DNA of 64,000 nucleotides from an uncultured Candidatus Rokubacteria bacterium (GTDB lineage Bacteria; Methylomirabilota; Methylomirabilia; Rokubacteriales; CSP1-6), in NCBI GenBank assembly GCA_963789955.1, contig CAWBMV010000034.1:512001-576000 (forward strand), in the 5' to 3' direction. Positions within the stretch are counted from its first letter, which is position 1; each line of letters starts with the position of its first letter. Made by a program: the position numbers. This document shows, piece after piece, positions 37,804-49,800 of the stretch.

Positions 37804-40800
37804 TGAACCCGGCGCTCGGCATGGCCTTCATGCGTCACGACGATGATCATCGCGGTGCCCTCGGCCATCAAGACGTTCAACTGGCTGGGCACGCTGTGGG
37901 GCGGCAACATCCAGCTTCACGGTCGCCGATGCTGAACGCGCTCGCCTTCGTCTCGATGTTCGTCATCGGCGGGCTCTCGGGCATCTTCATGGCCTCGACG
38001 CCGGTCGACATCTACATCCACGACACGTACTTCATCGTCGCGCACATCCACTACGTCGTCTTCGGCGGCAGCGATCTTCGGCGTCGTTCGCGGCGATCTA
38101 CTTCTGGTTCCCGAAGATGTTCGGCCGCATGATGAACGACGACGCTCGGCAAGCTGCACTTCTGGCCGACGTTCGTCGTTCTTCAACCTGACCTTCTTCC
38201 CGATGCACATCATCGGCGTCGGCGGCCACATGCGCCGCATCTACAACCCGACGCAGTACGAGTTCCTGCAGCCCTGCAGCACTGGAACGTGTTCATCACC
38301 GTCAGCGCGCTGCTGCCTCGGCGTCGTCGCAGATCCTCGTTCGTCATCAACTTCTTCTGGAGCCTGTTCGCCGGCAAGAAGGCGCCGACAGAACCCGTGG
38401 AACGCGAACACGCTCGAGTGGGACGGCGCCGTCGCCGCCGCCGCACGGGAACTTCCGGGCCCGACGTTGCCGACCGTGTACCGCGGCCCGTACGAGTACA
38501 GCTCGCCGCGAGTCGCGCGAAGACTTCCTGCCGCAATCCGCGGCCCCGGTTGGGGCGCCCCGAGCGCGGCGGCACTGATCGAGAGGGCGACCGGTGGCCT
38601 ATCGTCTGGCGCTCGCCACCCTGGGCGCCACGTGTGTCCTCATCCTCTTGGGGGGACTGGTCACGAACACGGGCGCCGCGCTGGCGGTGCCCGACTGGCC
38701 GAGCACGTTCGGCTACAACATGGTTCTCTTCCCCTGGTCGAGGATGGTGGGCGGCATCCTCTACGAGCACAGCCATCGGTTGATGGGCGCGCTCGTCGGG
38801 CTGCTCACCCTGGCCCTGGCGGGGGCGCTCTGGCGTGAAGGCGGCCGGCTGCGGCGTCTCGGACTCGTCGCGGTGGCCGCCGTCGTCGCTCAGGGCGTGC
38901 TGGGCGGGCTCCGCGTCGTTCTCCTGCAGGACACGCTCGCGATCTTCCACGGATGCCTCGCCCAGGCGTTCTTCGCGCTGCTGGCGGTGATCGCGCTGCT
39001 GACGGCTCCGGGCGGCCGCGTCGCCGCTTCACCGGTCGAGCCCGCGCTGAAGGGCCTGGCGGTGCTCGCCGCCGTTCTCGTCTACGTGCAGATCGTGTTC
39101 GGCGCGCTCCTGACACACGCCGGACGCATCGACCTGCACCTGGCCGGGGCCGTTCTCGTGTTCGTCCTGGTCCCGATCGTCGCCGCGCAGCTTCGCCGGA
39201 CAGGCGATGCGGTGGCCGCGCCGGTGTCGCGACTCGTCGGCGTTCTGCTCGGCGTTCAGCTCCTGCTCGGCGTCGGCAGCTTCCTGGCGAGGTTCTCGTC
39301 GATCTGGATTCCGGGCGAGCAGCTGACGGTGCACGGCCCTGCCGGTCGCGCACCGGCTGATGGGTAGCCTGATTCTGGCGGCTTGCGTCGTCCTCGCGGT
39401 GAGAGTGAGTGTTGTCGCGGGGTTTGTTGTAGCGGGGGCGGGTCGACCGTGCAGCGAGCCGTCCATGAGGCCGCCGGCCGAAGGGTTGTCCGCCGAAACG
39501 CGAGCCGGCTCGCGTCTCTGCAGGCCACCCTCGGTCGAGCTGGCGCGTCGCGGACCCCGCTACAACCGATGCGATGGGGACCTTGCCATGACTCCACCCA
39601 CGCTCGAAACCGCGCGCGTCGGCGCGGACGCCGTCGTCGTCGGACTGGCGCGCGAACGCCTCCGGGTCGCCGCCGATCTGCTCGCCCTGACGAAGCCGCG
39701 CGTCGTCCTCATGGTGCTGGTGACAACCGTCGTCGGGTACTACGTCGGGCTGACGGGCGCGCCGGACTACGTTCGGCTCGTGCACCTGCTGATCGGCACG
39801 ATGCTGGCGGCCGGCGGCACGCTCGCGCTCAATCAGTACTGGGAGCGCGACGTCGACGCCCGGATGAATCGCACGCGCGTGCGTCCGCTCCCGGACGGTC
39901 GGCTCTCGCCGCTCGAGGCGCTCGTCTTCGCCACCGCCGTCACGGTCGCCGGCCTCGGCTACCTCGGCGCGTTCGTGGGAGGCCTGGCGCTGCTGGTGAC
40001 CGCGGCGACGACCGTGCTGTATCTCTTCGCCTACACGCCGCTCAAGCTCCGGACGCCGCTCTGCACGATCATCGGCGCGGTACCGGGCGCGCTGCCGCCG
40101 GTGACGGGGTGGGTGGCCTCGCGCGAAGGCTTCGGCCTGGGCGCCTGGGTGCTGTTCGGGATCCTGTTCCTGTGGCAGCTGCCGCACACCCTGGCGATCG
40201 CGCGTCTCTACCGCGACGACTACGCGCGCGCGGGTGTCCGTCTGCTGCCGGTGGTCGACGTCGACGGAACCTCGACCGAGCGGCAGATCGTCACCGGCTG
40301 CCTCGCGTTGCTCGCGGTCAGCCTGCTGCCGACCTTGATCGGCCTGGCGGGCCCGTTCTACTTCGTCGGCGCCTTCGTGCTCGGCGCGGCGTTCGTCGCG
40401 CTCGGCGCGCGTCAGGCGCTCGCGCCGTCACAGGGCTCGGCCCGGCGCGTCCTGTATGCGTCGTTGCTCTACCTGCCGATCCTGTTAGCGCTGCTCGCGT
40501 TCGACAAGGTATGACCAGCGACGCGCGGAACCGGCAAATCCTGCAAGATCATCCTGACGATCGTCGGGGCGCTCATCGTCTCGTCGTTCCTCGTCGGAAT
40601 TCGCTGGTGACGACGCTCACCGTCGAGCGCCCGCGGCGGGCCAACGGACGCGTTCCGCCGACTCCACCGCCGACCGGCGGGGGCGACGGCTTCGAGCGCG
40701 AGCCGGGACCGCGCCGGCCGCTCCTCGACAACGTCCGGCTGGCGATGCTGTTCCTGATCTGCGGCGGAGGTCATGTTCTTCGGAGGCCTCGTCTCGGCGT

Positions 40801-46800: not shown

Positions 46801-49800
46801 CGACCTCTGGCGCGGCGCGCCGGTGTTCGCCGACCTGCGCGATCCGAAGCTCGGCGGACGATGCGGCGCCTGCGAGTTCTCGAAGATCTGCGGGGGATGC
46901 CGCTGCCGCGCTTACGCGACGCACGGCGACTACCTCGCCGAGGATCCGGCGTGCGGCTACCAGCCGGGCGGGCACGGCGGCGCCTTGATCGATCTGCCGG
47001 CCTCGCTCACGTTCGGGCTGCCGATCGACTACCAGCTCGTGTGGGACGAGGACGCGCGCGCGCGCCTGCAGGCCATTCCGTCGTTCGCGCGGGGGATGGT
47101 CATCAAGGCGGTCGAAGCCTACGCGCGCGGGCGGGGCGACACGACGATCACGAAGGAGCTGCTCGCGGACGTGCGCTCGAAGTGGGGCTCGCGCTTCCGC
47201 GCCTCGTCCTGATGGATCGGTTCCGCCTCGCGTCCCGCGCGTATCTGGTCTATGGCGTGGTCTACTGGATCGGCGGGCTCTATCTCGCCACGCAGGGCGT
47301 GGGCGTCCGCGGCGGACGCATGATGCAGGCGGGTGTCGCGTGGATCGTCATCGGACTGGTGCTGGTGGCGGCGATCCCGTATCTGCTCGCTCGGCGTCGA
47401 GCGTGGTTCGAGCGCTGGATCCTCTCGCGCCGCGACTTCGCGCGCGTGCTGACGGCGTTCATGGCCTTTCGGGCCTGGCACGTGCTGAGGGTGGCGCTCC
47501 GCCCGGAGACCGCGAGTATCGCGGCGCCCTGGGGCGGCGAGATCACCTTCCGTGCCGGCGCGATCGTCTTCCTGATCGTCACCGTGACCGCGCTGCTCCT
47601 GATCGGACGCGCGGCCTGGGCGAAGGAGGCTCCGTGAAGCGCTACAAGGACATCGCCGGCGACGGCGGCTCGAACATCGCGGGCCAGGTCGAGGCCCAGC
47701 AGGGCCGGCTGAAGAAGCGGCTCGAGTCGGTCCGGGCAATCGTCGCGATCGTCTCCGGCAAGGGCGGTGTGGGAAAATCGACGCTCACGGCGAGCCTGGC
47801 CTGCGCCTTCGCCCTCGACGGCTCGAAGGTCGGCGTGCTCGACGCGGATCTCAACGGCCCGACGCAGGCCAAGGTCCTGGGCGTGCGCGGCCGGCGCCTG
47901 GTCATCGCCGACGGTGTCGTCGAGCCGCCGGCCACGGACCTGGGCGTGAAGGTGATGTCGATGGACCTGCTGCTGCCGACCGACGCCGCGCCGCTCACCT
48001 GGGATGCGCCGGTGCAGGACGAGGCGCACACGTGGCGCGGCGCCATGGAGGCGAATGCGCTCCGCGAGTTCCTGGCGGACACCGAACTGGGGCACGCTCG
48101 ACCTCTTGCTGCTCGATCTGCCGCCCGGCACCGACCGGCTCGCGACGATCGCGTCGCTCGTCCCGACGCTCTCGGGAATCGTGGTCGTGACGATCCCGTC
48201 CGACGTGTCGCATCTGGTGGTGAGACGATCGATCACGGTGGCGGCCAACACGCGGGCGCCGGTGCTCGGGCTGGTCGAGAACATGTCCGGCCTCTTCGTG
48301 GGGCCCGACGCCTCCAGGCTCGCCGCGGACGCCGGGATCCCCTTCCTCGGCAGCGTGCCGTTCGATCGGGCGCTCGCCGTCGCCGGCGATCAGGGCGATC
48401 CGTTCGTCGCCAGCGCGCCGGAGCGCATGGCCGCGATGGCTCTCAGGCGAATTGCCGAGGGAATCCGCAGCCGCGCTGGCCCCGCGGCCGGTGTGATCGC
48501 GGTCGGACAAAGAAATCGGCCCCGGACAGAGCCGGGGCCGAGGCGTATCCGCGAGAGAGTTTTCTCTACTGGCAGTTGATCTTCGGATCCGGGGTGTAGC
48601 CGGCCACCTTGTACGTCAGCACGAAGTCGTCAGCCCACGCCTTCGGCTTGATCTGGCCGAGCTTGGTCTCGCCGTCCCACGCGATGACGTGCGAGCCTTC
48701 GGCGAGCTGCGCGACGCTGGCCTTCCCGCGCAGATAGTCGACGACCACCGACTTCGGAACGAACACGGCGGCAGTCTCCATGACCGCCTGCTGCCCGCTC
48801 GCGGGCTCGGCCTTCAGCCAGCTCGCGATCACGGTGAAGCCCTCGAGGTTGGGCTCCTTGATCAGATCGTTCGTGGCCATCGAGCGCAGGAGGTGCGGGA
48901 CGTAGCGCGAGAACATCGACGAGACTCGGTCCTGGACACTGAGGCGTACGAACTCAGGAGCCGGCTGCTGATCGACGTTGACGTTCAGCGAGAGGTAGCG
49001 AATGTCGCCTTCGATGTGCTTGGGCTTGTAGAAGCCGATTCCTTCCGGCTTCACGTCCAGCCAGGGCATGCAGTGATAGACCTTCGCGTTGAGGTCGCGA
49101 AGAGCTCCCTGATACTTCTGGCCGAGCGCGCGTCCCTTGTCCGAAGTGTACCGGTCGGGCTGAAGCACCCGGTCGGTCGGCGCCTCGGCGGCCGAAGCCG
49201 GGTTGACAAGGAAGGTCAGGGTCGCGGCGGCGGCCATTCCAACGATCGCGCGTCCGAGCATTCGTGTTTTTCATGCGTGACACAGGTGGCATGTGTCGTG
49301 CCAGCCCTGGAGCGTCCCGTAAGCCTTTGGATCTTCGAGAGTCCCGGCGTAGCGCCAGGGATATCCCTGACGCCAAACTGCCCCCCGAACCGTCAAAAGG
49401 TGTCGGTGTGCCCTCAGATGGGCTTAACGCTCGAGGATCTGGTCCTGATTGACGGTGACGGCCTTGCCGAACCAGTTCTGGCTCTGAGCCATGGCGACGT
49501 CCTGGCGCGTCACGTTCGGCGAGCCGCCACTGTTCTTCATCGAGAAGTCGAAGTGCTCCTTCGACGCGAAGTGGCTCGTGTTCGACCGCCACGTGTTCCA
49601 CTCCTCGCCCGACGCGCAGCCGCCAGCTAGCAGGAGTGCGGTTCCCATCACGACTGAGCGCCAGTGCTTCCCGTACATGGCCAGACCCTCCTAGGGAGTT
49701 CGGACTGCGCGGTATCCTACAGTCGCTGGGGGAGCAGGTCAATCGGCCGTTCGTGCTAGACTTCCACTTACAACGTCGAGGAGAGGGGACTCGATCGCGA

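What a model noticed while it worked through the whole genome (the two positions that open the first line are those of the whole stretch)
38594..47637. AhbD/NirJ-like radical SAM enzyme with a BchB-tail domain and a Usp-rubredoxin partner inside the caa3 oxidase / heme A [...]
Directly behind the genes for heme A synthase, heme O synthase and caa3 oxidase subunits lie g05646 (two Usp domains, two copies of the C-terminal domain of protochlorophyllide reductase BchB, and a rubredoxin) and g05647 (radical SAM + SPASM of the AhbD/NirJ tetrapyrrole clade, fused to the same BchB-tail domain). Boldest reading: a stress-switched, oxygen-independent tetrapyrrole-tailoring pair that feeds or alters the heme of the terminal oxidase, for instance a radical-SAM coproheme decarboxylase standing in for the peroxide-dependent ChdC. 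New: a function and a testable context for the orphan PF08369 domain outside photosynthesis and for a radical SAM family that pipelines call 'heme sy [...]
Evidence so far: Order on the + strand: ctaA g05638, ctaB g05639, COX3 g05640/42, COX4 g05643, DUF983 g05644, g05645, g05646, g05647. g05647: best NCBIfam rows heme b synthase AhbD 299 bits (cut 500) and NirJ2 298 bits (cut 500), so in the clade but no equivalog; g05646 residues 341-392 match the last 50 residues of BchB (2.6e-18). The rSAM+SPASM+PF08369 fusion is real: all 120 listed of 1394 homolog clusters (E<=1e-120, at least 81% identity) carry the three domains. neighbours.tsv: PCP_red next to Radical_SAM in 78 of 182 Rokubacteriales and 1740 genomes in all; DUF983 (cox locus) within 2 genes of PCP_red in 76 of 182 and only 78 genomes in all. 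The genome has a full coproporphyrin-dependent heme route (h [...]
(Added by a program. Inside this text positions count along the whole contig: contig position 512,001 is position 1 of the stretch shown here. "Call 12" and the like, gene names such as g00115 and contig names such as C1 are that model's own, and its searches are not shown. The text may have been shortened before it was handed on; [...] marks where a part breaks off. The agent that wrote the report below was given it as the finding of a first reader that could run no searches.)

Follow-up and report, generated by a model that had tools for sequence, protein, structure and literature searches.

The report
Maturation module for bd-like respiratory enzyme
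Two uncharacterised genes, a heme-synthase-like radical SAM enzyme and a histidine-rich ATP-binding partner, occur across bacterial phyla together with the unstudied 'bd-like' respiratory enzyme of nitrifying and anammox bacteria rather than with the neighbouring cytochrome oxidase, and probably make or deliver that enzyme's heme.

Summary
The genes are real: a tandem-Usp/rubredoxin protein with three (not two) PF08369 domains and a radical SAM/SPASM-PF08369 enzyme. The reading 'feeds heme A/caa3, stands in for ChdC' is not supported. The operon starts 8 kb upstream of the finding with an OR-N 'bd-like' CydA, and that is what the pair tracks: identical genome sets in Rhodothermia (21 of 131) and Planctomycetota (Usp and OR-N 29 of 301; enzyme 27 of those 29, none of 272), 71 shared of 85 in Methylomirabilota. 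Three near-complete relatives keep COX1 and heme A synthase but lack pair and OR-N; two anammox-type genomes have pair and OR-N without CtaA, with the Usp gene inside the nxr cluster (kustd1706 position) and the enzyme unlinked, beside a separate AhbA/AhbC/AhbD set. The enzyme has AhbD's full eight-cysteine SPASM motif but forms its own clade (99/97). Best reading (0.55): a dedicated tetrapyrrole maturation module for OR-N; the boldest, a new heme, 0.3. No substrate is shown. This scan noted the module before on other DNA (8 notes); ten paper searches found no description.

The parts
30464..32308 (+). OR-N-type 'bd-like' CydA, first gene of the operon (true start probably a little downstream of the listed TTG); proposed client of the module
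   Evidence: PF01654 E 1.4e-16; profile matches solved CydA only in the N-terminal helices; at least 11 hydrophobic segments, no CxxCH; 50-72% identical to CydA-like genes beside the module in other phyla
32310..33108 (+). diheme cytochrome c of the bd-like complex (one frame change near the 5' end)
   Evidence: PF00034 x2; tblastn frames 3 then 1
33113..35315 (+). cytochrome c / cytochrome c + EB_dh heme b domain protein (alt-NxrC type), several frame changes
   Evidence: PF00034, PF09459, TIGR03477; aligns in four pieces to an intact 745-aa homologue
35296..36042 (+). secreted cupredoxin-like protein, kustd1713 position in anammox clusters
   Evidence: PF13620; HNIH and CDVHSWM motifs (type-1 copper reading recalled); homologue precedes cydA in G417
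36064..42847 (+). cox2, cox1 (both with frame changes), ctaA, ctaB, cox3, cox3, cox4, DUF983: caa3 block inserted between the bd-like genes and the module; neighbour, not required partner
   Evidence: Pfam, tblastn; dissociation tests
   Evidence: tblastn of an intact homologue, frames 1 then 2; HNTH and CDAHPHM
43685..45592 (+). Usp-Usp-PF08369-rubredoxin-PF08369-PF08369 protein, 635 aa; positional and sequence homologue of anammox kustd1706-type UspA
43685..44674 (+). tandem Usp core with two pseudo-symmetric helical insertions carrying invariant H44/H212 and H72/H240 (also H255, H303): proposed heme or metal site
   Evidence: conserved in all ungapped rows of 87 aligned proteins, H255 in 85; internal alignment in register; helices 41-97 and 211-265
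45779..47212 (+). radical SAM/SPASM enzyme with C-terminal PF08369, 477 aa from the ATG at 45779
   Evidence: CX3CX2C at 45890-45913, eight-cysteine SPASM at 46619-46954, PF08369 at 47042-47173; closest homologues begin at the same place; own clade
47209..47637 (+). 142-aa membrane protein, no family; overlaps both neighbours by 4 bases
   Evidence: no Pfam or NCBIfam hit; homologues in 18 of 80 GTDB loci, mostly the own lineage
47634..48579 (+). Mrp/NBP35-type Fe-S carrier ATPase, one frame change near 48090
   Evidence: PF10609 in two frames; tblastn; beside the Usp gene in 67 of 80 GTDB loci

Best explanation
The pair is the core of a dedicated cofactor-maturation module for the OR-N 'bd-like' CydA complex (TO_1/kustd1712 type). 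Shown: domain anatomy, intact Fe-S motifs, a separate enzyme clade, and genome-level co-occurrence with OR-N rather than with caa3. Inferred: the radical SAM enzyme, with three [4Fe-4S] clusters supplied by Mrp, abstracts a hydrogen from a propionate side chain of an iron-porphyrin (coproheme or heme b), as its relatives AhbD and NirJ do; the ATP-binding tandem-Usp protein holds the tetrapyrrole between its paired histidine hairpins and hands it to apo-CydA; rubredoxin and the small zinc-ribbon/CPF protein (on contig C1 in this genome) serve electron transfer or heme relay; PF08369 repeats act as small interaction or lid modules shared by the members. Within this reading I put a product other than heme b at about 0.3, channelled heme b at about 0.15 and non-catalytic or covalent heme insertion at about 0.1.
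For: Same 21 of 131 Rhodothermia hold Usp protein, enzyme and full-length OR-N. Same 29 of 301 Planctomycetota hold Usp protein and OR-N; the enzyme scores 421 bits or more in 27 of them and at most 353.5 in the other 272, although in eight genomes it lies 75 kb to 2 Mb from the Usp gene on the same contig. 47 of 50 Usp-bearing genomes of mixed phyla hold OR-N. Methylomirabilota: 71 both, 8 Usp only, 6 OR-N only, 36 neither. Full AhbD SPASM motif of PMC10452713 in the window enzyme and in 44 of 46 candidate ORFs. Tree: 17 of 17 PF08369-tailed enzymes form one clade (99/97) inside the tetrapyrrole group (95/88), apart from AhbD+TIGR04053 (99/92). A HemY-type oxidase follows the enzyme in 17 loci by clustering, 24 by tblastn, and HemJ lies near it in 5, of 80 metagenome loci. 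Invariant CPF in 15 of 15 small partners and CP motifs in linkers of 22 of 67 long Usp homologues, like heme-regulatory motifs (recalled). Siroheme decarboxylase found in only 7 of 40 handles searched, so the AhbC/NirJ substrate is unlikely to be the general one.
Against: No substrate, product or heme binding is shown. Most co-occurrence is physical linkage (21 of 21 Rhodothermia, 26 of 29 Planctomycetota Usp-OR-N pairs within about 10 kb), which joint transfer of an operon would also give, and 23 of the 29 Planctomycetota look like one clade, so independent events are few. 14 of 85 Methylomirabilota and 3 of 50 mixed genomes are discordant (all draft genomes). G318 has the Usp gene beside a distant CydA pair but no clear PF08369-tailed enzyme, and G439 lacks a hit. 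Mrp and the small CPF protein were not found in the 80 metagenome loci by tblastn, so they are optional. The window's own Usp protein has no linker CP motif. Closest solved folds of the enzyme are peptide maturases (PqqE, SkfB, SuiB), expected since no AhbD structure appeared in the searches but leaving a protein substrate open. A purified archaeal CydAA' works with heme b alone (passage). ChdC-like genes are enriched among module holders (15 of 21 against 9 of 110), which fits a coproheme link but also simple heme supply.
Confidence: 0.55

Rival explanations
1. One reading: an oxygen-independent coproheme decarboxylase replacing ChdC and feeding heme O/A to the caa3 oxidase under low oxygen.
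For: Adjacent to ctaA/ctaB/cox here and in 49-51 of 80 GTDB loci; AhbD is the best NCBIfam row and the SPASM motif is complete; host has hemE-hemH-hemY and no AhbA/B hit; AhbD in coproporphyrin-pathway bacteria is in print (passages).
Against: G500, G508, G531 (99-100% complete) keep COX1 and CtaA with no module; G460 and G417 have the module with no CtaA hit and a separate AhbD at 497-499 bits; 0 of 80 metagenome loci carry cox genes; the clade is apart from AhbD and TIGR04053.
Confidence: 0.1
2. The module is dedicated to OR-N, but the enzyme modifies protein: it forms a cross-link or protein-derived cofactor in CydA or a partner, as peptide-modifying SPASM enzymes do, with the Usp protein as chaperone.
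For: Same co-occurrence data; best structural matches are PqqE, SkfB, SuiB, anSME; OR-N has many invariant Tyr, Trp, His and Met residues outside the CydA heme core.
Against: Nested in the tetrapyrrole clade, peptide maturases outside; HemY/HemJ neighbours and CP motifs point to porphyrin; no RRE/PqqD-type domain found by Pfam.
Confidence: 0.13
3. The two genes have separate jobs: the Usp protein is a cytoplasmic nucleotide- or heme-sensing regulatory subunit of the OR-N complex, and the enzyme is a second heme b synthase that raises heme supply for heme-rich respiratory chains.
For: In anammox-type genomes the Usp gene stays in the cluster while the enzyme is unlinked; tandem-Usp folds form regulatory domains of transporters; UspA proteins rise under low oxygen in Nitrospira marina, family not identified (passage).
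Against: The enzyme still co-occurs when unlinked (27 of 29) and sits next to the Usp gene in 56 of 80 distant loci; both carry the same rare domain; a second bulk heme synthase would not be expected to be absent from all 272 other Planctomycetota searched.
Confidence: 0.17
4. Hitch-hiking: the genes travel in a respiratory super-operon and serve none of its complexes specifically.
For: Most positives are linked; neighbours vary (cox, SCO, ABC, CopD-like, sensor kinases).
Against: Co-occurrence persists when the enzyme is megabases away and when the cox block is present without them.
Confidence: 0.05

Closest known systems
AhbD, radical SAM heme b synthase (TIGR04545; PMC10452713)
   Same: Radical SAM + full eight-cysteine SPASM motif CX20-33CX17CX36-37CX2CX5CX2CX17-35C; shared CAPH segment; same large clade
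   Different: 299 bits against 500; separate clade; C-terminal PF08369 domain(s); coexists with a distinct AhbD in 21 of 23 anammox-like genomes (scored as AhbD in 2); tied to OR-N
NirJ2 (TIGR04055) and TIGR04053 radical SAM families
   Same: Similar scores (298 and 259 bits); a NirJ2-like Paenibacillus protein is the sister branch (98/90, long branch)
   Different: Below both cut-offs (500, 395); those references lack the PF08369 tail
Heme d1 cassette of cytochrome cd1 (NirJ plus helper proteins) as a working model
   Same: A radical SAM tetrapyrrole enzyme encoded for one respiratory enzyme's cofactor (NirJ role from PMC10114771 passages; cassette logic recalled)
   Different: NirJ/AhbC form another clade (100/99) and need didecarboxysiroheme; AhbA/B found in only 7 of 40 handles
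[quoted passage not shown]
   Same: Same position: after cydA and the 2-1-2-4-1-heme cytochromes, before nxrC; anammox-type proteins are Usp-Usp-PF08369 with the same histidines
   Different: No function assigned in the passages read; one PF08369 and no rubredoxin there; the Kuenenia sequence itself was not compared
Tandem Usp proteins Rv2623 (3cis) and TTHA0350 (3ab7/3ab8)
   Different: About 55-residue helical insertion in each domain with paired invariant histidines; PF08369 repeats and rubredoxin tail
PCP_red domain of DPOR BchB/ChlB (PF08369; 2kru, 2l09)
   Same: Sequence and structure match
   Different: One to six copies per protein, on four kinds of protein, in non-photosynthetic hosts; its role in DPOR was not given in the review passages read
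OR-N bd-like complexes, TO_1 of Ca. Manganitrophus, bd-like_3/alt-NxrC_2 of Nitrospira
   Same: CydA-like subunit, two cytochromes c and an EB_dh-type heme b domain in the window
   Different: Here without nxr genes nearby and fused into one operon with caa3 genes; no maturation genes are named in the passages read

Membership tests
AhbD (TIGR04545) | N-terminal CX3CX2C | tested here: met
   C31, C35, C38 from 45800, invariant in 39 rows
AhbD (TIGR04545) | full SPASM motif of methanogen/sulfate-reducer AhbD | tested here: met
   motif from PMC10452713 matched at residues 274-385
AhbD (TIGR04545) | score at or above the equivalog cut-off (500) | tested here: not met
   299 bits here; 275-338 in 15 homologues
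AhbD (TIGR04545) | groups with AhbD in a tree | tested here: not met
   own clade 99/97; AhbD-scoring proteins group with TIGR04053, 99/92; references are HMM-assigned, not the assayed enzymes
AhbD (TIGR04545) | converts coproheme to heme b | not testable with these tools
   needs assay
NirJ / AhbC | clade and cut-off; siroheme decarboxylase in the host | tested here: not met
   193 and 174 bits against 515 and 650; separate clade; PF17805 not found in this 87% complete genome nor in 33 of 40 handles
TIGR04053 | cut-off 395 | tested here: not met
   259 bits
ATP-binding tandem Usp | two Usp folds, each with Asp in strand 1 and G-2x-G-9x-G(S/T) (motif recalled) | tested here: met
   D10, G130-G133-G143; D178, G298-G301-G312 with a 10-residue spacer here
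ATP-binding tandem Usp | binds or hydrolyses ATP; stress-induced | not testable with these tools
   no data
PF08369 PCP_red | Pfam gathering score 32.5 | tested here: met
   93.5 bits over three stretches and 52.5 bits; single domains 45.4, 44.5, 30.6 and 56
OR-N bd-like CydA (Murali et al.) | CydA N-terminal helices, no heme c motif, more helices than qOR, operon with alternative electron donors | tested here: met
   at least 11 hydrophobic segments against nine for qOR
OR-N bd-like CydA (Murali et al.) | subfamily N1 or N2 (14 helices, authors' HMMs) | tested here: inconclusive
   simple hydropathy gave 11; the authors' models and supplement were not available
caa3 / heme A maturation factor | co-occurs with COX1 and CtaA | tested here: not met
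   3 of 3 complete relatives have COX1+CtaA without it; 2 of 2 anammox-type genomes have it without CtaA
HemW-type heme chaperone | CgdH/HemN-like sequence without SPASM | tested here: not met
   SPASM present; no HemN/HemW row among the 25 NCBIfam rows shown of 73; a HemW-like function is not excluded

The most novel reading that the evidence does not exclude
OR-N 'bd-like' enzymes of Nitrospira, Nitrospina, Manganitrophus, anammox bacteria and Rokubacteria carry an undescribed heme, made without oxygen by this radical SAM clade from coproheme or heme b (for instance a partly decarboxylated, acrylate or chlorin-type derivative) and inserted by an ATP-driven Usp-fold chaperone with a four-histidine hairpin site; kustd1706 is that insertase and PF08369 is the docking module of the pathway.
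Probability: 0.3. Interest if true: 0.92.

Novelty: new variant of a known kind. Interest (0 to 1): 0.68.

Why it matters
OR-N enzymes are the proposed terminal oxidases of the main nitrite oxidisers and of manganese oxidisers, and are among their most expressed genes, yet the papers read here call them uncharacterised and anaerobic anammox bacteria have them too. If they need a dedicated maturation module, this names the genes to co-express for a first active preparation, predicts a special cofactor that can be looked for by heme LC-MS in existing cultures, gives the unassigned kustd1706 of the anammox nxr cluster a job, and shows that pipelines naming this clade 'heme synthase' or 'stress protein' are misleading.

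Tried and rejected

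
Full report
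1. What is in the sequence. ORF listing and Pfam scans confirm two intact genes on the + strand. 45779-47212 encodes a radical SAM/SPASM protein with one C-terminal PF08369; the closest homologues start at the same place. NCBIfam gives AhbD 299.4 and NirJ2 298.4 bits, both under 500. Downstream lie a 142-aa membrane gene and an Mrp/NBP35 ATPase in two frames. Upstream the + strand block continues to 30464: an OR-N 'bd-like' CydA (PF01654), a diheme cytochrome c, a cytochrome c/EB_dh protein, a cupredoxin-like gene, then cox2, cox1, ctaA, ctaB, cox3 twice, cox4, DUF983 and a second cupredoxin-like gene. cox1, cox2, two cytochrome genes, the second cupredoxin and Mrp have frame changes; short-read contigs of close strains show one-base gaps in cox1 and none in the pieces listed for the Usp and enzyme genes, as expected for assembly errors.

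3. What the pair travels with. In 80 metagenome loci of a distant clade (many short or redundant) cox genes occur in 0, OR-N in 25 and the enzyme in 56, HemY-type oxidase in 17 to 24, HemJ in 5 and a CopD-like protein in 21 (the last mostly Nitrospirota by the Atlas). Whole-genome tests: 47 of 50 Usp-bearing genomes have OR-N, the misses being drafts of 1.7, 2.8 and 4.6 Mb (50 of the 80 loci given). In the class of G001 (Rhodothermia by the record title) the same 21 of 131 genomes have Usp protein, enzyme and full-length OR-N, all linked. In Planctomycetota the same 29 of 301 have Usp protein and OR-N, 26 linked; the enzyme profile scores 421 bits or more in 27 of the 29 and at most 353.5 elsewhere. 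In Methylomirabilota 71 of 121 have both, 8 and 6 one only, 36 neither, and genera g6 (0 of 7) and g10 (0 of 4) lack both. Four unpublished genomes (G510, G528, G539, G581) are among the 71; without them the count is 67 of 117. Kin are not independent, and I give no P value.

4. Double dissociation from caa3. G500, G508 and G531 (99-100% complete) have COX1 (E 2e-161 or better) and CtaA but no Usp protein, OR-N or enzyme. G460 and G417 have no CtaA hit and at most a weak COX1-family hit, yet hold the module. In them the Usp-Usp-PF08369 gene follows cydA and cytochromes with 2, 1, 2, 4 and 1 heme motifs and precedes an EB_dh gene, a 403-aa gene, a nitrate-reductase-delta gene and a 1149-aa gene. 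[quoted passage not shown] The assignment is by position. Their enzyme carries three PF08369 domains and lies elsewhere, and they also encode AhbA (141 against 140), AhbC (728-740 against 650) and AhbD (497-499 against 500). A second, AhbD-level hit accompanies the tailed enzyme in 21 of the 23 genomes of this type.

6. How it most likely works. Shown: anatomy, motifs, clade, co-occurrence. Inferred: hosts make heme b by different routes and still keep this clade only with OR-N, so it is not the housekeeping last step. Relatives act on propionate side chains of iron-porphyrins (passages of PMC10114771 and PMC11306076), and porphyrinogen oxidases are its neighbours, so the substrate is probably coproheme or heme b; HemY fits either and HemJ points to the protoporphyrin side (passages of PMC13564367). 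The Usp protein, soluble and tied to cydA even in anammox-type genomes, is the candidate carrier or insertase.

7. What is in print. OR-N is defined in bioRxiv 10.1101/2021.01.16.426971 (passages); the CydA + two cytochromes c + heme b unit is described in PMC6606698 and bioRxiv 10.1101/2021.11.15.468770 (passages); PMC10839748 and PMC12342949 call the enzymes unconfirmed (passages); none of these five main texts holds 'radical SAM' or 'stress protein' by the find counts, except that 'stress protein' was not asked of the first. PMC8115632 reports UspA proteins rising under low oxygen without naming the family (passages). PMC13474568 gave nothing on the BchB tail (passages). Searches found no paper describing the module; the library lacks most subscription papers and I saw no supplements. 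This scan has noted the module on other DNA in 8 findings: some read it as an AhbD-like heme b synthase, others as a bd-like oxidase helper. My reading before that call already had the bd-like link. A word search for the anammox link returned nothing.

8. Verdict. Real, conserved, uncharacterised; a new variant of a known kind (cofactor-maturation cassette of one respiratory enzyme). Not a member of AhbD by cut-off or tree, though it probably works like it. Interest 0.68; the new-heme reading has probability 0.3 and would deserve 0.92.

Noticed in passing
G000:C1:771723-772289 (L024:6724-7290, - strand): Orphan copy of the small zinc-ribbon/CPF/PF08369 protein, 40-53% identical to copies inside the module in other phyla.
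   Followed up: yes
L169:1495-2385 (G417), L170, L171: In anammox-type genomes a PF08369 + NIR_SIR + 4Fe-4S protein lies directly upstream of the siroheme decarboxylase gene ahbA: a second, independent tie of PF08369 to tetrapyrrole genes.
   Followed up: partly
window 1-1900, - strand: A second cox1/cox2 pair at the left edge of the window (tblastn), 48% identical to the query COX1.
   Followed up: no
window 35296-36042 and 42865-43591: Two paralogous secreted proteins with His/Cys/His/Met patterns like type-1 copper sites, labelled only 'carboxypeptidase regulatory-like' by Pfam; homologue precedes cydA in anammox-type clusters.
   Followed up: partly
G000:C6:468961-469674 (L023:6962-7675): Divergent ChdC-like gene directly behind moaA, away from the hemE-hemH-hemY operon; no NCBIfam hit at 1e-8; a similar protein lies near the module in L058.
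   Followed up: partly
L253:11587-12093, L058:14874-15377: CopD-like four-helix membrane proteins follow or precede the enzyme in 21 metagenome and 19 GTDB loci; possibly the counterpart of the window's 142-aa protein, though no similarity to it was found.
   Followed up: partly
L236-L261: In Nitrospirota-like loci the pair lies behind an mpqE-type quinone methyltransferase and a B12-dependent radical SAM gene, with no CydA within the fetched flanks.
   Followed up: no
L129 (G233:C345): OR-N cluster with the module is followed by Rieske and molybdopterin genes of arsenite-oxidase type, suggesting OR-N is coupled to several DMSO-reductase-family donors.
   Followed up: no
window 40511-40610 and 41267-41494: Two short membrane ORFs between ctaB and the cox3 genes, one with a CATC motif; the first seems to change frame.
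   Followed up: no
P0301, P0252, P0290, P0333: Longer Usp-family members with N-terminal additions (a pyridoxamine-oxidase-like domain in P0301; leading PF08369 repeats in P0290).
   Followed up: no
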